Below are positions 4,635 to 55,767 of a stretch of 64,000 nucleotides of DNA, in pieces. How positions within the stretch are numbered: the first letter of the stretch is position 1; each line of letters starts with the position of its first letter. The notes beneath the pieces are model-generated. The model was not told the DNA's origin, did no database searches, and saw nothing but the letters and a program-made list of their open reading frames with translations. The position numbers and the translations under genes were made by a program. Source of the DNA: Escherichia virus TH15; sequence record MT446392.1; one strand, given 5' to 3'.

Positions 4635-5639
4635 ATGTTTAAGAAATATAACAGCCTTGAAAATCACTATAACAACAAGTTCATTGAAAAGATTCGCCTG
4701 CAAGGCTTCACCAGCGGTGAATGGGTAGCTCGTGAGAAAATTCATGGTACCAACTTTTCATTAATTATTGAACAAAATAATGTGACATGTGCGAAACGCA
4801 CTGGACCTATCCTACCTGCAGAAGATTTCTATGGCTACGAAATTGTACTCAAGAACTATGCAGATTCCATTAAAACTGTGCAGAGACTTTTACAGGATAT
4901 TAATTACCAATCATACCAAATTTATGGTGAGTTTGCTGGTACAGGTATCCAGAAGAATGTGGATTATGGCGACAAAGATTTCTATGTGTTTGATATCCGC
5001 GTTACTAAGGAAGATGGCTCTGAATCTGTTTTGACTGATTCATTGATGGAAGCCTTCTGTATTATCCATAAATTTAAGGTTGCCCCACGCCTGGCTACGG
5101 GTAGTTTTGAAGACTTGATTAAGCTCCCTAACGACCTGGATTCTGTGGTTCCTGATTACAATTTTACAGTAGATAATGCGGGTTTGACTACCGCGAATAC
5201 CACCGATTTTGACGCAAAGGTTGAAGGTAAAGTATTCACTGCAGAAGGGTATGTTCTTAAACCTGATACTCCTGCCTGGTTACCTAATGGTGAGCGCGTA
5301 GCGATTAAATGTAAGAACTCTAAATTCAGCGAAAAGAAAAAGTCTGATAAGCCTATCAAGGCTGCTGTTGTGTTGTCCCAGGAAGACCTGGACATTTTAT
5401 GGAAGTTTACCGATTATGTGACTGTTAACCGTATCAATAATGTTATCAGTAAAATTGGGGAAGTAACGCCAAAGGATTTTGGAAAGGTAATGGGTTTGAC
5501 TGTTCAAGATATTTTGGAAGAAGCGGGTCGGGAAGGCCTTGAATTAACCCAAACGGAAAATCCTGTTGAAGTTAAAAAGCAACTCATTGCAAATGTAAGA
5601 GATACATTAAGACATGTTTGGATTGCATTAATTAGTTAA
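4635..5639 (+). CDS. rnlB: RNA ligase 2
   Basis: 334 aa; MFKKY..LENHYN.KFIEK...[18 protein letters not shown]...[16 protein letters not shown] matches T4 Rnl2 as remembered; nucleotidyltransferase KxHG lysine motif. Confidence 0.92.
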
Positions 5640-5644
5640 TAAAA

Positions 5645-5670
5645 AAGGGCCGCAAGGCCCTTATTCTTTT
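5645..5670. terminator. bidirectional intrinsic terminator (GGGCC-gcaa-GGCCC) after rnlB (+) and gp24 paralog (-)
   Basis: Hairpin with A6 upstream and T-rich run downstream. Confidence 0.7.
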
Positions 5671-6944
5671 TCCAGTGGTGGAAGTTTAACACCAAGATAA
5701 GAACTCAATTGGCTTTGGTTAGCCATCTTATCCATATCAGCCCCATCAATAATGCGAGCTTCTTTATCGTCTTTAGCAACGGTATAAGGGTTCGCAGTCA
5801 GTGCATAACGAGCTAACAGTGCAACTGTAGGCTGTAAACTTTCAGGGTCAACGATAACCTTGAATTCCCCAACCGAGGTGTCACCCTCATCATCAACTTC
5901 ACTAAGACCTTCCGTATAAGGCGCATAATACAAAGATGCGACCGTCTGACCTTCACCCATATCGGCATTTACGCCAACAATAACATAATCGCATGGGCTA
6001 TTCATATCTGCATAAAGCGGCAAACCGTTCTTCAGAACGCCATAGGCCAATTCATCCTGGTCGTCCTTTTTCTCAACCCAACCAGAAGCTGCTAAAATAG
6101 CTGCACACCGGGAAGAGGCAACTGCATATGTACCAGCGAACGAAGTCTGACGTTGAACTGCGGAATTCATTTCGCACATATAATAATACAGGGTTCGAGC
6201 CCGGTCTTGCGCATTATCATATCTCGGGTCGGTAAGATTCAATACACCTTTTTCAGAAACACCTTGTACCTTGAAGCGGGAACTAACAGTAATAAGGGAT
6301 TGCAGTACGTCCTTATTAATTTCCTCTGCCATTTGAATGCCAAGGATATTATCAATAAAATCTGTTGCGTCGAAACCATTTGCTTCCAGGTCCTGAGCAA
6401 GCTCAACAGTTAAAGAGGTTTTCAGTTTTCTGGATTTGACTTCGGTCTGCCATTTATCGATACGGAAACCGGCTTCAGCAATTTCAGGATGACCCTGTTC
6501 AAATTTATTAGTGAAAGCTGCATCCGACATCATTCTTATATGGCCAGCAGCAATGGCTTCAGAAATAACTTCACCCAAATCAGTTTCAAGGGTCCCAGCA
6601 AAAGGAGAAGCTTCCAAAACTTTGAATACAACGCTTTCGAACTGGAACATATCGCCGACTGCATAAGCTTCGTCTTTATTTGTAAATTCTGGGATATTCT
6701 TACGCTCGAACATGCCAATCTGGCCTGCAAATGTTGCTCCACCAAGATATGTCATTTTATCATCTGGGTTCAGAACACGAACACCATACAACGCTGCAAC
6801 AGGCTGGGTAGTTTTCTGTTCGGCAACGAGTGCTTTAAAAATTCGTTTATTCGTAGCCTGGGTATAAGAAAGCAAATTAGGACGGGCGACCTGGTTGGCC
6901 GCCGTTAATGTTGATTCGTGAATTAGTGCGTTAATCTTTTGCAT
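5661..6944 (-). CDS. second gp24-like head vertex protein (divergent tandem paralog)
   Basis: 427 aa; shares NKWxxxVKSRKLKTxLTVELAQDxEANGF and INKDVLQSLITVS blocks with adjacent gp24; start ATG abuts gp24 stop (TAAATG). Confidence 0.8.
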   Translation of the reverse strand: MQKINALIHESTLTAANQVARPNLLSYTQATNKRIFKALVAEQKTTQPVAALYGVRVLNPDDKMTYLGGATFAGQIGMFERKNIPEFTNKDEAYAVGDMFQFESVVFKVLEASPFAGTLETDLGEVISEAIAAGHIRMMSDAAFTNKFEQGHPEIAEAGFRIDKWQTEVKSRKLKTSLTVELAQDLEANGFDATDFIDNILGIQMAEEINKDVLQSLITVSSRFKVQGVSEKGVLNLTDPRYDNAQDRARTLYYYMCEMNSAVQRQTSFAGTYAVASSRCAAILAASGWVEKKDDQDELAYGVLKNGLPLYADMNSPCDYVIVGVNADMGEGQTVASLYYAPYTEGLSEVDDEGDTSVGEFKVIVDPESLQPTVALLARYALTANPYTVAKDDKEARIIDGADMDKMANQSQLSSYLGVKLPPLEKE

Positions 6945-8225
6945 TTACGCCTCATAAATGATTGGCGGAAGTTTAACACCGAGCAGATAAGACATATTGC
7001 TCTGGCCGGCCATTAAATCCATATTAGTTGCATCGATAATACGAGCTTCTTTGTCGTCTTTAGCAACGGTGTAAGGGTTAGCTGAAAGTGCATATCGAAC
7101 CATCAGGGAGATAGATGGCTGCAAGCTGTCTGGGTCCACAATGACCTTAAATGCACCTACGTGTTCTTCATCATCTAAGTCCAGGCCTTCGGTATAAGGA
7201 GCATAGAAGATTGAGCCTACGACTTCGTTTCCGCCATAATTTTCTTTAACGCCAACGGTTACATAATCTAATGGACTGTTAACATCACAGAATACAGGAA
7301 GACCATTAATCAAATAACCATACGCGGTTTCCGGGAGCCATTGTTCATCTTCAGGTTTATGTTTCAACCAACCGGAACCGGCGAGCATCGCGGCCACACG
7401 ACTTGAGGCAACAACGAATGTACCAGAGTAAGATGTAGTTTTCTGAATTTCAGAGTTCATTTCGCACACCAGTTCGTACAGTTTACGTGCGCCTTCTGGA
7501 GCTGAATCATATGTCAAATCGATGAAACCTTTATCAGAAACGCCAGTGACTTTATAACGCTTGGAAACGGTAATCAGAGACTGAAGAACATCTTTGTTAA
7601 TTTCATCTGCCATAGTAGTTGCAAGCAGGTCTTCCAGGAAAGCAGGAGCATTAAAACCGTTTGCTTCCATATCCTGTGCAAGTTCAACAGTCAGTGCAGT
7701 TTTCAATTTACGGGATTTAACAGGAGCATTCCATTTATTAACCTGGAATACAGCGTTACTAATTTCAACATCACCAGCTTCAAATTTCTCGGTGTGTGCA
7801 GCATCAGGAACTAAACGAATAGTCGATGCAATAAGACCTTCTTGCAGAACATCAGATAATACTGTTTCTGTAGTCGTTGCAAATGGATTATCCACCAGAG
7901 CTTTGTAAACGATATTTTGATATTTTACATATTCGCCTTTAGCAACAGGTTGAGTAGCTGTAGCTAATTCTGGAATAGTTGTACGGTCTTTAGAACCGAC
8001 TTCACCACCATAAGTAGCACCAGTCTGGAAACTGAATTCATTATCAGGAGTAAGATATTTAACACCGTACAGCGCAGCAACAGGCTGGTTAGTACGTTGT
8101 TCAGCGATGATATCGCGGTAAATCAATTTAGTTGTAGCGCGGGTCAAAGCAACAAGATTCGGGCGGCCTAATGAGTTGCTGGATGTAGTAGTTGACTCGC
8201 GCAGCAGTTCGTTAATCTTTGCCAT
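6945..8225 (-). CDS. 24: gp24 head vertex protein
   Basis: 426 aa; N-terminus MAKINELLRESTTT...GRPNLVALTRATTKLIY matches T4 gp24 as remembered. Confidence 0.9.
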   Translation of the reverse strand: MAKINELLRESTTTSSNSLGRPNLVALTRATTKLIYRDIIAEQRTNQPVAALYGVKYLTPDNEFSFQTGATYGGEVGSKDRTTIPELATATQPVAKGEYVKYQNIVYKALVDNPFATTTETVLSDVLQEGLIASTIRLVPDAAHTEKFEAGDVEISNAVFQVNKWNAPVKSRKLKTALTVELAQDMEANGFNAPAFLEDLLATTMADEINKDVLQSLITVSKRYKVTGVSDKGFIDLTYDSAPEGARKLYELVCEMNSEIQKTTSYSGTFVVASSRVAAMLAGSGWLKHKPEDEQWLPETAYGYLINGLPVFCDVNSPLDYVTVGVKENYGGNEVVGSIFYAPYTEGLDLDDEEHVGAFKVIVDPDSLQPSISLMVRYALSANPYTVAKDDKEARIIDATNMDLMAGQSNMSYLLGVKLPPIIYEA

Positions 8226-8250
8226 TGCGCTTTCCTTTTGTGATATACTT

Positions 8251-8258
8251 TATTTATA
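8251..8258 (-). promoter_or_regulatory. T4-type late promoter TATAAATA upstream of gene 24
   Basis: Minus-strand TATAAATA 26 nt upstream of ATG at 8225. Confidence 0.65.
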
Positions 8259-8264
8259 AAAGTT

Positions 8265-8294
8265 GTTTACACTCTAGTTGAACTGAGTTATAAT
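8265..8294 (+). promoter_or_regulatory. early-type promoter (GTTTAC -35, TATAAT -10) for homing endonuclease gene
   Basis: GTTTAC 8265-8270, 18-nt spacer, TATAAT 8289-8294. Confidence 0.5.
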
Positions 8295-8318
8295 TTTGAT
8301 ATTAGAGGAGACTAAATT

Positions 8319-8978
8319 ATGCATTATTTAATTTACAAAATAACTAACTTGATAAATCATAAAATTTATATTGGGGCGCACGCCACAGAAAACGTGTATG
8401 ACTCCTATATGGGGTCGGGAGTCAACATTGTCAAATCCATCAAAAAACATGGTATTAAGAACTTTAAAAAAGAAATTTTGTTTGTTTTTGATACTTCATA
8501 TGAAATGTATGAGAAAGAAGCTGAACTTGTTAATGAACAATTTGTGCTTAGAGCTGATACATACAATGCAGCTATTGGCGGCAAGGGAAATCCAATTATT
8601 GTTAAACTACAAGACCCTTCATACAGAAAAATGATTTCAGAAAAGACAAAAGCAGGTATGACCGTAGAAGTAAAGCGGAAAATATCAATAGCAAAAACAG
8701 GAGTCAAACAGTCACAAGAGCTTATTGATAAACGTACGGCGGGTGTCAAAAAATATTTAGAAACACACCAGCATCACAACAAAAATAAACCAATAAGCGA
8801 TAGCCACCGCAAAGCAATTTCAGAAAAATTAAAAGGGATTAAAAAACTTATTAAGATTTCAATCAAAGGTAAGACTTTTGATAACCCAGATTTTGCTGCT
8901 GAACATTTTGGCGTTTCTCCAAAAACAATACGCAATTGGATAAATTCAGATAAACACCCAGACTGCTTCAAACAATAA
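8319..8978 (+). CDS. GIY-YIG homing endonuclease (Seg-like) with NUMOD3-type DNA-binding repeats
   Basis: 219 aa; N-terminal [19 protein letters not shown]...GSG GIY-YIG-type motif; inserted between genes 23 and 24 on opposite strand. Confidence 0.8.
8319..8978 (+). mobile_element. free-standing homing endonuclease gene insertion between 24 and 23
   Basis: Same as CDS; opposite strand to flanking late genes. Confidence 0.6.
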
Positions 8979-9002
8979 AAAAGGGACTCCGAAGAGTCCC
9001 TG
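8975..9002 (-). terminator. intrinsic terminator downstream of gene 23 (GGGACTC-cgaa-GAGTCCC)
   Basis: 7-bp stem; T7 run on minus strand. Confidence 0.7.
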
Positions 9003-9016
9003 AAATTTATTAAGGA

Positions 9017-10576
9017 TTAAATTCCCTTAACATATACACGTCTAAAGTAACCGTTCAAGCCGAGGCTGTTAACGATGTCCGGCATACCGTTTTGAATACG
9101 CTTGGTCGGAGCCTGAGCTGCCGGGTCAGCGAACGGGTTAATACCGATACCGTAACGGGTTTTGAAGCCCATAACCGGCTGGAAGTTTTTCGGGTCAGAG
9201 CCACGCAGCGGTGTCAGTGCAACATATGGTGCGTAGTAGATACCAGCATCCATTTCGTTAGCACCTTTGTAACCGATGGTGAAGTAATCTGCGCGAGCAT
9301 ACTGGTCGATATAGACACGGTATTTGCCACCCAGAACACCAGCGAACACAGCTTTAGTGGTGTCAACGTTGAAACCTTTACCCAGACCCTGAGCAGCATA
9401 AGATACGGAGGTATCAACTGCAGCCAGTACGTTAACTACGTTACGGGAAGCGATGATGAAGTTACCTGCACCACGACCGGTCTGACGAGCGATTTCAGCA
9501 GCTTCTTTGTCAATCTGGAACAGTAAAGCTTTGAAGCTTTCACCAGCCCAACGAGCGCCACGGATATCAATCGGGTCCTGGAAGTCAAACACACCAGCTT
9601 TAGCGCCAACGGTGTTGGTCATACCAGATTTACCAACCTGTGCGGAGTAGTTAATCCAATCGATAACTTCGCGGTTGATTTCCAGCATAATTTCAGTAGC
9701 CAGAATACCACTCAATTCAGCATCAGCGTCCATACCGTGAACAGCGCGCAGGTCCTGTGCCAGTTCGATAGAGTAGCTTGCTTTCAGCTGACGGGATTTA
9801 GCTTCGATAACTTGTTTATCGATGCGGAAGCCCATTTCGTTCCACGGGTTATCCTGAGAACCGTTGAAACCTTCCTGCAGTTCGGCGATAGAGGTAGCCA
9901 TACCTTCAGCGATTTCTGCCAGTTTACCAGCTTCGAGCAGTTTGGTAACTTCAGCGTCAAGTTTAGCAGCATCAGTAGCGGCGGCATCAACGGTTACAGC
10001 TTCAACAGCCTGGTAGTGTGCGGAACCGGTTGCTTCGAAGAAGTGAGAATAAATTTTACCAACGGTAAGAACTTTGCTTGCAGCCAGAGCTTCGAAAGCT
10101 TCAGCAGCGCCCTGACCGGAGAACATAGCGTTCGGAGCATACATCGGGTGGAAAGCTTCTTTAGCACCAGCAGCTACAGGGTCTTTACCGTAAACTGCAC
10201 GCAGGGCAAATACCTGGCCAGTCGGGTTGTTCAGAGGCTGGACGCCACAAATATCAAACGCAATCAGATGCGGGATAGCACGACGAACCATACCCATAAC
10301 TGCCGGCCCAATCTGAGTTACTGCACCAGAGGTCTGGCCAGCAGCGATATTGGTAGCATCATAACCATGGTCACCACCGATTTCAGCTTCGGTCAGGAAA
10401 GAACCAAATGCTTCGGAGATTTTTTCGTCACGGTATTCTGGAGCGGTCAGGATATCTTGTTCCTGGTTTTCAAAGATTTTAGCGATGATAGCTTGTTTAG
10501 AAGCACCAACGATTTCAGGAAGAGCTTCATTTTCCAGCAGAGCGGACCATTTTTGTACTAATGCATTCTTTTTCAT
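9017..10576 (-). CDS. 23: gp23 major capsid protein
   Basis: 519 aa; long blocks matching T4 gp23 as remembered (AIIAKIFENQE, GPAVMGMVRRAIP, NPWNEMGFRIDKQVIEAKSRQLKA). Confidence 0.97.
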   Translation of the reverse strand: MKKNALVQKWSALLENEALPEIVGASKQAIIAKIFENQEQDILTAPEYRDEKISEAFGSFLTEAEIGGDHGYDATNIAAGQTSGAVTQIGPAVMGMVRRAIPHLIAFDICGVQPLNNPTGQVFALRAVYGKDPVAAGAKEAFHPMYAPNAMFSGQGAAEAFEALAASKVLTVGKIYSHFFEATGSAHYQAVEAVTVDAAATDAAKLDAEVTKLLEAGKLAEIAEGMATSIAELQEGFNGSQDNPWNEMGFRIDKQVIEAKSRQLKASYSIELAQDLRAVHGMDADAELSGILATEIMLEINREVIDWINYSAQVGKSGMTNTVGAKAGVFDFQDPIDIRGARWAGESFKALLFQIDKEAAEIARQTGRGAGNFIIASRNVVNVLAAVDTSVSYAAQGLGKGFNVDTTKAVFAGVLGGKYRVYIDQYARADYFTIGYKGANEMDAGIYYAPYVALTPLRGSDPKNFQPVMGFKTRYGIGINPFADPAAQAPTKRIQNGMPDIVNSLGLNGYFRRVYVKGI

Positions 10577-10597
10577 GTGTTGTATAACCTTATTAAA

Positions 10598-11416
10598 TTA
10601 AGAAATTCGTGATGCTGCGAGAGCAGACAAGTCCGCGAAGGACAGGGTAGGCTTGGCGCCTTTTTCTTCAACTGCTTCTGAAATGTAATTCAGTGCCGCA
10701 GCATCGTCTACATTTTTATTTATAGCGGCTTCGGTGATTGGTTTTTCGGTGGGTTCTACCTGACCTTTAACCATTTCAACAATAGCGCCAATTTTGGTAC
10801 CGAATGCATCAGAGTAATCCATGCCTTCTACCAGAGAACCAACTTTTTCTTTCTGAGATTCAGTCAGGTCTTTGGTTGCTTCAGTCAACGCAACTTCACG
10901 TTGGACATAATTGATATAAGCATCACGCTTAGAAACTTCTTCGAACAGACTAGCGGTTTCTTCTTTCTGTTCAGCCAGTTCTTCCTGCATTTCTGCAACA
11001 ACATCAACAGATTCTTCTGGAACAACAACGTTGTGCTCAACGAACAGTTCTTTCATGCCGGTAAACATGGATTCGAACAGGTCAGCTTTAATGCCACGGT
11101 CGACAGCCAGTTTGTTTTCAGCAAGCCATTCTTTAGCAACGTGGTCCAGGAATTTAGCTGCAGATTCTTTCAGTTTTTTCTCTGCTTTTTCGTCGGATTC
11201 TTCTTTATTCTTTTCGACTTCTTCTTCAGCTTTTTCAGCGATGGCGTGAATGTGAGATTCTGCCAGTTTGATGGCGTGTTGCTTGACGGTAGCTTCGAAT
11301 ACAGTGCCGAAGGTAGCTTTCGCTTCCGGGGACAAATTAACTGATTCGAAAATACTATCAAGAGCAACGGAAGCATCGATATTCTGAGCTTCAGAAATGA
11401 GTTGTTCTTTAAGCAT
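10598..11416 (-). CDS. 22: gp22 prohead core scaffold protein
   Basis: 272 aa acidic coiled-coil protein between 21 and 23; T4 synteny. Confidence 0.88.
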   Translation of the reverse strand: MLKEQLISEAQNIDASVALDSIFESVNLSPEAKATFGTVFEATVKQHAIKLAESHIHAIAEKAEEEVEKNKEESDEKAEKKLKESAAKFLDHVAKEWLAENKLAVDRGIKADLFESMFTGMKELFVEHNVVVPEESVDVVAEMQEELAEQKEETASLFEEVSKRDAYINYVQREVALTEATKDLTESQKEKVGSLVEGMDYSDAFGTKIGAIVEMVKGQVEPTEKPITEAAINKNVDDAAALNYISEAVEEKGAKPTLSFADLSALAASRIS

Positions 11417-11445: not shown

Positions 11446-11453
11446 TATTTATA
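11446..11453 (-). promoter_or_regulatory. T4-type late promoter TATAAATA upstream of gene 22
   Basis: 30 nt upstream of ATG at 11416. Confidence 0.65.
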
Positions 11454-12087
11454 ACGTCTTTAAAGCCTCTGCGAGAGCCATAAAGGCGTCATCGGCACTG
11501 GTATCGGCTTCCGCCGTTTGTGATTCTGTAATCTGCTTCGGTTTGACCCAAGCGTCCGGAGCACTCGGCCCCCATACTGCATCCACTCCAACCGTCAATT
11601 TAAAACCTTCGTTGACGATACTATAACCTTTGGCTGATTTAGTCAAGGAACCAAGTCCACGACTAGATACACCCGGAATCCAACCTGCTCTTATATTTGC
11701 GGCAAGTTTATCACCTGGGCCATGGTCGCCTTCAATAATTCGTGCACGTCCATATACATCATTTCCTTTCCACCACATTTCTTCAATAATAATTGCGGCT
11801 TGCATAGGGTCGACGTTCGCACGGGGTGGATGGTTTAATTCTCCAAGTGACTGCTTGGTTTCAACCTGTTCGGCGATATAATCCGCAACGGCTTTTTCCA
11901 AAATATGTTTAGGATAAAGTCGTTTATTACGGTTGACAACTTCAGCTTGTAGGAAAATCCCTTCAATATAAAGTCCAGGTTTTAAACCGCTGCCAGAACC
12001 ATCATGTGATTCCAGCATCGGTACACCATCTTTAATTTCGCCCGGTTGACCCCAGTGTTCGATTAGTAACTCTGGTTTCTGTTCCAT
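11449..12087 (-). CDS. 21: gp21 prohead core protease
   Basis: 212 aa; LLIE.WGQPGEI.DGVPMLESHDG...LGELNHPPRANVDPMQAAIIIE matches T4 gp21 as remembered. Confidence 0.95.
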   Translation of the reverse strand: MEQKPELLIEHWGQPGEIKDGVPMLESHDGSGSGLKPGLYIEGIFLQAEVVNRNKRLYPKHILEKAVADYIAEQVETKQSLGELNHPPRANVDPMQAAIIIEEMWWKGNDVYGRARIIEGDHGPGDKLAANIRAGWIPGVSSRGLGSLTKSAKGYSIVNEGFKLTVGVDAVWGPSAPDAWVKPKQITESQTAEADTSADDAFMALAEALKTL

Positions 12088-54495: not shown

Positions 54496-54952
54496 AGGTT
54501 GTAAATTAGATTTGTATAAAGATACCGAGGGGTACTATACCATTGGTATCGGGCAACTGATAACTAAGAACCCATCGAAAGATGTTGCTCGTGCCGAGCT
54601 CGACAAGCTCATGGGTCGCGTCTGTAATGGTCGCATAACCCAGCACGAAGCTGAAACATTGTTTAACCGTTCGGTCGAAAAAGCTAAAGCCGGAATATTG
54701 AGGCATCCTGTCTTAAAACCTGTTTATGATGTACTGGATGAAGTTCGTCGTTGTGCACTCATTAATATGGTATTCCAGATGGGTGTTGCCGGGGTTGCTG
54801 GTTTTCCTAAGGGACTGCGATTGCTCAAGGCCAAATCGTGGGAAGCTGCTGCTAAGGAACTGGCGGACTCAAGATGGTATAAAGTCCAGACTCCAAACCG
54901 GGCCAAACGAGTTATTGAAACTTTCCGTACTGGAACTTTTGACGCTTATTAG
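54464..54952 (+). CDS. e: endolysin (T4 lysozyme)
   Basis: 162 aa; [12 protein letters not shown]...[13 protein letters not shown]...[12 protein letters not shown]...NRAKRVI.TFRTGT.DAY matches T4 E. Confidence 0.97.
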
Positions 54953-54989
54953 TTTACATCTCCAAACGATAGGGTTATAATGACCCTAT
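54952..54989 (+). promoter_or_regulatory. early promoter GTTTAC / TATAAT with -10 inside inverted repeat ATAGGGT/ACCCTAT
   Basis: Upstream of denV. Confidence 0.5.
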
Positions 54990-55738: not shown

Positions 55739-55767
55739 GTTTACTTTATGATGGGATAGTGTATAAT
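55739..55767 (+). promoter_or_regulatory. early promoter GTTTAC-17-TATAAT whose -10 box contains the ATG of the next IP-like ORF
   Basis: GTTTAC 55739-55744, TATAAT 55762-55767. Confidence 0.45.

What the first reader, a model, noticed from the sequence alone, without database searches (positions are those of the whole stretch)
8265..8978. GIY-YIG homing endonuclease with its own promoter wedged between genes 23 and 24
A 219-aa Seg-like GIY-YIG ORF with NUMOD3-type repeats lies on the opposite strand to the flanking late genes, preceded by an early-type promoter and followed by a hairpin that doubles as the gene 23 terminator. It marks a mobile insertion inside the core capsid gene block.
Basis: partly seen in the sequence, partly recalled or inferred. 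Interest (0 to 1): 0.45.

Follow-up and report, generated by a model that had tools for sequence, protein, structure and literature searches.

The report
segD homing endonuclease gene, T4-like phage
This is the well-known T4 gene segD, a selfish DNA-cutting enzyme gene sitting backwards between two capsid genes. Here it is found in a phage lineage whose deposited relatives carry a different small gene, or nothing, at that spot, so it is real but ordinary.

Summary
ORF 8319-8978 (+, 219 aa) lies between late genes 23 (9017-10576, -) and 24(1) (6945-8225, -).

- **Identity:** it is 72.5% identical over its full length to T4 SegD, which occupies the same slot in the same orientation. Profile and fold comparisons give the I-TevI plan: an N-terminal GIY-YIG domain and a C-terminal helix-turn-helix.
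- **Promoter:** an 11/12 sigma-70 / T4-early-type promoter (8266-8294) precedes the gene. Its -35 half belongs to the slot, not to segD. T4, VR7 and the Dhakaviruses keep the same TTTACA at the same place whatever gene follows.
- **Terminator:** the hairpin at 8982-9001 is mainly the gene 23 terminator (UUCG loop and U-tract on the - strand).
- **NUMOD3:** the motifs are sub-threshold in this protein.
- **Mobility:** the slot is polymorphic. About 26 deposited Gaprivervirus records carry a 93-aa ORF there instead, TH57 is empty, and IME08/UP19 carry that ORF plus segD. The window has VR7-like flanks, but 8272-9044 is of another lineage (19/19 versus 22/116 informative sites). That pattern is a ~0.8-kb conversion patch.
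- **Selection:** the alleles are under strong purifying selection (dN/dS 0.05-0.11).

Verdict: already known kind, low interest.

The parts
8251..8258 (-). T4-type late promoter octamer TATAAATA for gene 24(1). It lies back-to-back with the early promoter, 7 nt from its -35 hexamer.
   Evidence: 19 TATAAATA sites against 5.4 expected, with strand following gene orientation. Conserved in VR7, IME08, JS98 and T4.
8265..8294 (+). Early-type sigma-70 promoter: -35 (G)TTTACA at 8265-8271, 17-nt spacer, -10 TATAAT at 8289-8294. The -35 half is shared with all slot variants. The -10 half lies in the lineage-specific patch.
   Evidence: for the window. Searches (T4: TTTACA-17-TATTAT; VR7: TTTACA-17-CATAAT). 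Alignments.
8305..8310 (+). Shine-Dalgarno GAGGAG, 8 nt upstream of the ATG.
   Evidence: Read from the sequence.
8319..8978 (+). segD coding sequence, 219 aa plus stop.
   Evidence: ORF. (72.5% aa identity, 100% coverage, to T4 SegD). (T4 SegD cluster P0007 is the best outside hit, E 2.8e-94). (phrog_314 homing endonuclease, 8.7e-50).
8319..8588 (+). N-terminal GIY-YIG catalytic domain (aa 1-90): Y6, Y17-I-G19, E67, N83.
   Evidence: 1mk0, E 0.005; 1mk0/1ln0, prob 1.00, TM 0.65.
8616..8843 (+). Helical linker with NUMOD3-like units (aa ~100-175, e.g. 116-128 and 160-173).
   Evidence: NUMOD3 E 0.37, sub-threshold. (14/31 homologues match NUMOD3). (aa 156-175 align to I-TevI HSDITKSKISEKMKG).
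8850..8957 (+). C-terminal I-TevI-type helix-turn-helix DNA-binding domain (aa ~178-213).
   Evidence: 1i3j, E 1.1e-7 with profile A1. (1i3j, prob 1.00). (HTH_17 0.004; I-TevI_DNA-bd 0.039).
8972..9001 (-). Gene 23 intrinsic terminator: stem 8982-9001 with a C(UUCG)G loop on the - strand, followed by U-tract 8981-8972. The U-tract overlaps the last two codons of segD (CAA TAA). On the + strand the tail is only GAAATTTATT.
   Evidence: The same arrangement occurs in T4, where it scores as a terminator only on the gene 23 strand.
8272..9044 (.). Recombinant patch of L007/L009/TH57-type sequence inside VR7-type flanks. Crossover intervals are 8227-8271 and 9045-9091. It includes the last 28 nt of gene 23.
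   Evidence: 19/19 informative sites in 8979-9044 are non-VR7, against 22/116 in the flanks (Fisher p 4e-12).

Best explanation
The ORF is the orthologue of T4 segD, a free-standing GIY-YIG homing-endonuclease gene built like I-TevI: an N-terminal nuclease, a helical linker with NUMOD3-like units, and a C-terminal helix-turn-helix. It sits in the variable 'early-gene slot' between late genes 23 and 24(1) of a Gaprivervirus-like phage. It is transcribed rightward, against the late genes, from the slot's conserved early-type promoter. Transcription is stopped by the hairpin that mainly terminates gene 23. Shown here: identity, architecture, expression signals, presence/absence polymorphism, purifying selection, and a ~0.8-kb patch of foreign sequence exactly spanning the gene, the terminator and the last 28 nt of gene 23 in an otherwise VR7-like backbone. 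Inferred: the enzyme is made early and cuts a long asymmetric site in or near the 23-24 region of a co-infecting relative that lacks it. The break is then repaired from the segD+ genome, copying segD and a few tens of bases of flank in place of the resident 93-aa ORF. I rate the identity as near certain (~0.97). I rate the patch being the footprint of nuclease-driven homing, rather than ordinary recombination, at roughly 0.5-0.6. The confidence given here is for the whole statement, including that inferred step.
For: - **Orthology and synteny:** 72.5% aa identity over 100% of the length to T4 SegD. T4 has the same order, 24 (-) / segD (+) / 23 (-), and PMC2988022 lists segD between 23 and 24 in the opposite orientation.
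- **Fold and domains:** profile A1 hits the I-TevI DNA-binding domain (1.1e-7) and catalytic domain (0.005). The AlphaFold model (pLDDT 85.6) matches 1i3j and 1mk0/1ln0 with probability 1.00. 30/31 homologues match SegE_GIY-YIG.
- **Invariant residues:** Y6, Y17, G19, E67 and N83 are invariant.
- **Expression signals:**
- **Polymorphism:** no DNA match to the ORF in 50,697 phage records. About 26 Gaprivervirus records match only the flanks. VR7 has ORF190c instead, TH57 has a 79-bp empty slot, and IME08/UP19 have that ORF plus segD while JS98 has the ORF only.
- **Patch:**
- **Same allele elsewhere:** two other lineages carry it in the same slot.
- **Selection:** dN/dS 0.05-0.11, like genes 23 and 24.
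- **Composition:** GC is 33% against 43-49% in the flanking genes.
Against: [quoted passage not shown] 2018, Virology 515:215). I could not read that paper. The statement is as cited in PMC9523250 and as given by the title in PMC10448857.
- No cleavage site is known to me, so none could be looked for.
- These phages are mosaic everywhere: 22 of 116 flank sites already switch parent. A short patch can therefore arise without a nuclease.
- The direction of the swap (segD in, or ORF190c in) is inferred only from ORF190c being the majority state.
- The I-TevI Arg27 equivalent is not visible in the alignment, although this holds for the whole SegD subfamily.
Confidence: 0.55

Rival explanations
1. 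Same gene and same enzyme, but, like T4 SegD as reported, it does not drive its own inheritance. The cassette is exchanged passively by the very frequent general recombination of T4-like phages. It is kept because the nuclease does something else useful, for example cutting competitors elsewhere, or DNA processing.
For: Sokolov 2018, as cited. Background mosaicism of the flanks. Strong purifying selection comparable to essential neighbours. The segD divergence between lineages (dS 0.18-0.27) is similar to that of genes 23 and 24 (0.15-0.32), so it has been resident for a long time in some lineages.
Against: Both crossovers lie within about 45 and 75 nt of the heterology. That is tighter than expected for unselected general recombination and is typical of break-initiated co-conversion. 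The distribution across genera is sporadic.
Confidence: 0.3
2. Reverse polarity. segD is the older occupant of this backbone, and the VR7-type phages acquired the ORF190c cassette. TH57 then shows simple deletion of segD.
For: TH57 has L007-type flanks and keeps CAATAA, the last 6 nt of segD, plus the segD-type terminator, which looks like a deletion derivative. T4 has segD alone behind the same promoter.
Against: ORF190c/orf173 is present in essentially all Gaprivervirus and Dhakavirus records seen. In the Dhakaviruses segD is an add-on downstream of it. The retained nucleotides are also explained by the stop codon lying within the terminator U-tract.
Confidence: 0.1
3. The protein has lost nuclease activity and survives as a sequence-specific DNA-binding protein or repressor.
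For: No clear Arg27 equivalent. The Pfam GIY-YIG model (PF01541) is only sub-threshold (E 0.017). I-TevI is known to double as an autorepressor (PMC2988022).
Against: All residues invariant in the family, including T4 SegD, are kept. Purifying selection acts on the whole gene. The N-terminal domain is modelled with pLDDT 88-95 over residues 1-80 and matches the I-TevI nuclease fold.
Confidence: 0.04

Closest known systems
T4 SegD (NP_049788; gene segD between genes 23 and 24)
   Same: 72.5% aa identity over the full length. Same slot and same antisense orientation. Same TTTACA -35 with 17-nt spacing upstream. The same UUCG hairpin immediately follows the stop codon.
   Different: About 28% of residues differ and DNA identity is only ~60-77%. 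The host backbone is a Gaprivervirus with two gene 24 paralogues. The start codon is 3 codons downstream of the annotated T4 start and has a better-spaced Shine-Dalgarno. The -10 hexamer is a perfect TATAAT.
IME08 / UP19 SegD (Dhakavirus)
   Same: Same slot, orientation and architecture.
   Different: Only ~59% aa identity (P0017). There segD lies downstream of the resident 93-aa ORF and shares its promoter. Here it replaces that ORF.
I-TevI (group I intron GIY-YIG endonuclease; PDB 1mk0, 1ln0, 1i3j)
   Same: Two-domain plan: a GIY-YIG nuclease, then a NUMOD3-type linker helix, then a C-terminal helix-turn-helix.
   Different: segD is free-standing, not intron-encoded. It has no zinc finger in the linker. 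There is no obvious Arg27 equivalent. Catalytic-domain identity is about 22%.
Other T4 free-standing Seg endonucleases (SegA, B, C, E, F, G)
   Same: GIY-YIG N-terminal domain of the SegE_GIY-YIG Pfam type. Intergenic insertion next to conserved genes. Presence/absence polymorphism with co-conversion of flanks (PMC2988022, PMC2330249).
   Different: Those genes are co-oriented with their neighbours and use middle or late promoters. segD is antisense to its neighbours and sits behind an early-type promoter.

Membership tests
SegD orthologous group | Full-length sequence similarity to T4 SegD, higher than to any other protein group | tested here: met
   72.5% identity at 100% coverage. The T4 SegD cluster P0007 is the best non-self hit, E 2.8e-94.
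SegD orthologous group | Location between genes 23 and 24, transcribed opposite to them | tested here: met
   PMC2988022.
GIY-YIG nuclease superfamily | GIY and YIG motifs 10-11 residues apart | tested here: met
   L4-I5-Y6 and Y17-I18-G19. Y6, Y17 and G19 are invariant in 31 homologues and align to I-TevI Y6, Y17 and G19.
GIY-YIG nuclease superfamily | Conserved Arg (I-TevI R27) after the YIG motif | tested here: inconclusive
   No Arg in residues 20-34. The whole subfamily instead has the invariant motif H21, T23, D28, Y30, G32-S33-G34. I-TevI R27 falls in an alignment gap.
GIY-YIG nuclease superfamily | Catalytic Glu (I-TevI E75) and Asn (N90) | tested here: met
   E67 and N83 are invariant. 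N83 aligns to N90, and E67 aligns one residue from E75 in HMMER. hhalign instead pairs E73 with E75, so the exact register of the Glu is uncertain.
GIY-YIG nuclease superfamily | Alpha/beta GIY-YIG fold | tested here: met
   AlphaFold model with pLDDT 88-95 over residues 1-80. Foldseek to 1mk0/1ln0: prob 1.00, target TM 0.65-0.66, 96 columns.
NUMOD3-containing endonucleases | Significant match to the NUMOD3 motif (PF07460) | tested here: not met
   E 0.37, 11.2 bits against a cut-off of 20.4. Homologous positions do match in 14/31 relatives, so the units are degenerate here rather than absent.
I-TevI-type DNA-binding domain | C-terminal helix-turn-helix homologous to I-TevI residues ~170-245 | tested here: met
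   Profile against 1i3j, E 1.1e-7. Foldseek to 1i3j, prob 1.00. The single sequence alone is sub-threshold.
Free-standing homing endonuclease gene (functional definition) | Presence/absence polymorphism among close relatives at one site | tested here: met
Free-standing homing endonuclease gene (functional definition) | Co-conversion of flanking sequence with the gene | tested here: met
   19/19 informative sites in the 66 nt to the right of the gene travel with it, against 22/116 in the flanks.
Free-standing homing endonuclease gene (functional definition) | Site-specific cleavage of the gene-less allele and biased inheritance in mixed infection | not testable with these tools
   Needs enzyme assays and phage crosses. 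Reported negative for homing by T4 SegD (Sokolov 2018, cited).
T4-type early promoter | -35 GTTTAC, ~17-nt spacer, -10 TATAAT | tested here: met
   (3 sites in 64 kb, all + strand, 0.07 expected). Activity was not tested.

The most novel reading that the evidence does not exclude
Unlike T4 SegD, which is reported not to home, this divergent Gaprivervirus allele may be an actively homing enzyme. On this reading, the tight ~0.8-kb patch (crossovers within ~45 and ~75 nt of the gene) would be a natural footprint of a recent homing event that displaced the resident 93-aa ORF. More broadly, the 23/24 intergenic region would be a conserved early-promoter 'socket' in which cargo genes are swapped between T4-like genera.
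Probability: 0.3. Interest if true: 0.4.

Novelty: already known. Interest (0 to 1): 0.15.

Why it matters
It matters little beyond annotation, because segD and its odd antisense position between the capsid genes have been described for T4.

Three points have modest value:
- It is a clean natural example of a homing-endonuclease cassette replaced within near-identical flanks, with crossovers mapped to tens of bases.
- A strong early-type promoter is conserved at this slot in T4, Gaprivervirus and Dhakavirus. A 2010 review states that no segD promoter could be found in T4.
- segD is under purifying selection as strong as that on the capsid genes. This is relevant to the open question of what SegD is for if it does not home.

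Tried and rejected
- **Sokolov et al. 2018 (the SegD paper).** I tried to read it to obtain the cleavage site, but it is not held. Two further literature searches gave no site, so no target-site search was possible.
- **PDB search with the single sequence.** It found only the I-TevI DNA-binding domain at E 0.014. A 31-sequence profile was needed to reach the catalytic domain.
- **IMG/VR scan for close relatives of this allele.** None found.
- **Other seg-like genes in the window.** tblastn of the protein against the window found no paralogue.
- **Is the promoter part of the mobile unit?** Rejected. The -35 hexamer and its spacing are shared by all slot variants, and Dhakavirus segD has no promoter of its own.
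- **Is the hairpin a symmetric bidirectional terminator?** Only weakly. The U-tract and the UUCG tetraloop are on the gene 23 strand. The T4 counterpart scores on that strand only.
- **Does ORF190c (phrog_6003) resemble SegD?** No. It matches a family of unknown function and no nuclease family.

Full report
**What is there**

The window carries the head-gene block of a T4-like phage on the - strand. In order along that strand it holds a prohead protease (11449-12087), a scaffold protein (10598-11416), gene 23 (9017-10576, 519 aa), gene 24(1) (6945-8225, 426 aa) and a second gene 24 paralogue (5661-6944, 427 aa). An RNA ligase 2 gene follows on the + strand at 4635-5639.

Between 24(1) and 23 lies a 791-bp spacer (8226-9016). 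It holds a single + strand ORF, 8319-8978, ATG start, 219 aa.

A 24-kb stretch of the window is ~93% identical to Gapriverviruses such as TH44 and UPEC01. The locus examined (5661-11416) is identical to a contig assembled from SRR11772944. The exact protein is on record from NCBI on a 171.6-kb contig.

**Checking the observation**

- **Promoter.** TTTACA-17-TATAAT at 8266-8294 matches 11 of 12 positions. The T4-early form GTTTAC-N17-19-TATAAT occurs only three times in the 64 kb, all on the + strand, against 0.07 expected by chance.
- **Ribosome-binding site.** GAGGAG lies 8 nt before the ATG.
- **Hairpin.** The 8-bp stem at 8982-9001 starts 4 nt after the segD stop and ends 16 nt after the gene 23 stop. 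It folds at -16.3 kcal/mol on the - strand and -15.0 on the + strand, far better than shuffles.
- **Strand preference of the hairpin.** On the - strand the loop is the extra-stable C(UUCG)G tetraloop, followed by UUUUUUAUUG. On the + strand the tail is only GAAAUUUAUU. It is therefore first of all the gene 23 terminator. The T4 counterpart scores as a terminator only on the gene 23 strand.
- **Overlap with segD.** The U-tract overlaps the last two segD codons (CAA TAA).

**What the protein is**

tblastn against 50,697 phage records gives T4 SegD as the best match, at 72.5% identity over the whole length. The next tier is at about 59-63%.

In T4 the gene order and orientation are the same: 24 (-), segD (+), 23 (-). 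The 2010 review of T4 mobile elements lists segD as the free-standing GIY-YIG gene between 23 and 24, and as the only T4 endonuclease gene oriented against its neighbours (PMC2988022).

Domain evidence:
- Pfam gives SegE_GIY-YIG just above threshold (E 1.5e-5), sub-threshold GIY-YIG and I-TevI_DNA-bd hits, and several helix-turn-helix models at residues 193-211.
- A 31-sequence alignment of full-length homologues (A1) hits the I-TevI DNA-binding domain (1i3j, E 1.1e-7) and catalytic domain (1mk0, E 0.005).
- An AlphaFold model built on A1 (pLDDT 85.6) finds exactly these two I-TevI structures as its only convincing PDB matches (probability 1.00; TM 0.65 for the catalytic domain).

Y6, Y17, G19, E67 and N83 are invariant in the family and present here. 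No equivalent of I-TevI Arg27 is visible, but that is true of the whole subfamily, T4 SegD included.

NUMOD3 is not significant in this protein (E 0.37). It is significant in 14 of 31 homologues at the same positions, and residues 156-175 align to the I-TevI segment HSDITKSKISEKMKG.

**Is it a mobile insertion?**

The ORF has no DNA match at megablast sensitivity in the phage collection. Only the first 46 nt and the last few nt of the spacer match. With flanks included, about 26 Gaprivervirus records align at 92-97.5% but cover only 61-63% of the query.

The slot takes four forms among relatives:
- **VR7 and most Gapriverviruses:** a 93-aa ORF of unknown function (VR7ORF190c, phrog_6003).
- **TH57:** only 79 bp.
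- **Dhakaviruses:** JS98 has the small ORF alone. IME08 and UP19 have the small ORF followed 3 nt later by segD.
- **T4 and its relatives:** segD alone.

This segD allele occurs in the same slot in two other lineages assembled from other samples, L007/L008 and L009/L010. These are 92-98% identical in the gene.

**Recombination footprint**

In genes 24(1) and 23 the window is 97-100% identical to VR7. I scored sites where VR7 differs from the TH57/L007 lineage.

| Segment | Window matches VR7 | Window matches TH57/L007 |
|---|---|---|
| Flanks (116 informative sites) | 94 | 22 |
| 8979-9044: terminator plus last 28 nt of gene 23 (19 informative sites) | 0 | 19 |

The difference is significant (Fisher p 4e-12). 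The crossovers lie in 8227-8271 and 9045-9091. The window is thus a VR7-like backbone carrying a ~0.8-kb patch that brings segD, the terminator and the tip of gene 23.

The small ORF is the majority state in both genera, so the simplest reading is that segD displaced it here. The reverse polarity is not excluded.

**The promoter belongs to the slot**

The sequence TATTTATAAAAGTTGTTTACA is shared by the window and VR7, and with minor differences by IME08, JS98 and T4. It contains the gene 24 late promoter TATAAATA on the - strand (8251-8258) and the -35 hexamer of the early-type promoter on the + strand.

A -10 element follows 17 nt later in every variant: TATAAT here, CATAAT in VR7, TATTAT in T4. 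In IME08 and UP19, segD has no promoter of its own. The unit that moves is therefore essentially the ORF, up to the edge of the terminator.

The segD-less alleles keep the last nucleotides of segD (CAATAA in TH57, TATAG in JS98). I attribute this to the stop codon being part of the terminator U-tract complement; that is an inference.

The 2010 review states that no segD-specific promoter could be found in T4. The conserved site seen here is a candidate.

**Selection and composition**

Between the three sampled alleles, dN/dS is 0.05-0.11. This equals the values for gene 23 (0.07) and gene 24(1) (0.06), and all copies are intact at 219 aa. GC content is 33%, against 49% in gene 23 and 43% in gene 24(1). 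The gene is maintained, not decaying.

**How it most likely works**

Shown: an intact I-TevI-like GIY-YIG enzyme gene, with early-type expression signals, in a polymorphic slot, carried on a tight conversion patch.

Inferred: early expression; cleavage of a long asymmetric site in or near the 23-24 region of a co-infecting relative; and repair from the segD+ genome, copying the gene and a few tens of flanking bases.

[quoted passage not shown] 2018). I could only access this through citations. Ordinary recombination in these highly mosaic genomes could also produce the patch.

I put nuclease-driven homing at about 0.5-0.6, passive exchange of a non-homing nuclease at about 0.3, and an inactive DNA-binding remnant at under 0.05.

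**Verdict**

It needs these corrections: this is the known gene segD; the promoter is a shared feature of the slot; the hairpin serves gene 23 first; and NUMOD3 is sub-threshold. Novelty: already known. Interest: low.

Noticed in passing
window 5661-6944 (-) and 6945-8225 (-): Two tandem gene 24 (capsid vertex) paralogues, abutting with no spacer between them and only 55% identical in protein sequence. VR7, IME08 and JS98 annotate the same pair as 24(1)/24(2) or 24a/24b. T4 has a single gene 24.
   Followed up: partly
window 54952-54981 and 55739-55767 (+): These are the only other exact matches in the 64 kb to the T4-early promoter pattern GTTTAC-N17-19-TATAAT. Both are on the + strand (0.07 matches expected by chance).
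   Followed up: no
window, 19 TATAAATA sites (e.g. 3985, 4608, 8251, 10717, 11446 on -; 38369-61029 on +): The late-promoter octamer is 3.5-fold over-represented. Its strand switches from - (up to 29 kb) to + (from 38 kb), marking a change in late-gene orientation somewhere between 29 and 38 kb.
   Followed up: no
L004 (T4 NC_000866.4) 2443-2471 and 2492-2503: T4 has TTTACA-17-TATTAT with a TG extension upstream of segD, although a 2010 review says no segD promoter was found. The annotated T4 start codon is 3 codons upstream of the start shared by the window, IME08 and other orthologues, which may explain the odd 2-nt Shine-Dalgarno spacing noted in that review.
   Followed up: partly
L002 (TH57, MT446422.1) ~2027-2105: The 23-24 spacer is only 79 bp and lacks the early promoter. 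The gene 24 late-promoter octamer is changed to AATAAATA. The last 6 nt of segD and the segD-type terminator are kept, so it looks like a deletion derivative. The record is flagged UNVERIFIED, so an assembly artefact is possible.
   Followed up: partly
L001 (VR7) 2132-2413; L003 (IME08) 2113-2394; L012 (JS98) 928-1194: The alternative occupant of the slot is a conserved ~90-aa ORF (phrog_6003, unknown function) behind the same promoter. Its last codons differ between IME08 (segD+) and JS98 (segD-) right at the segD junction.
   Followed up: partly
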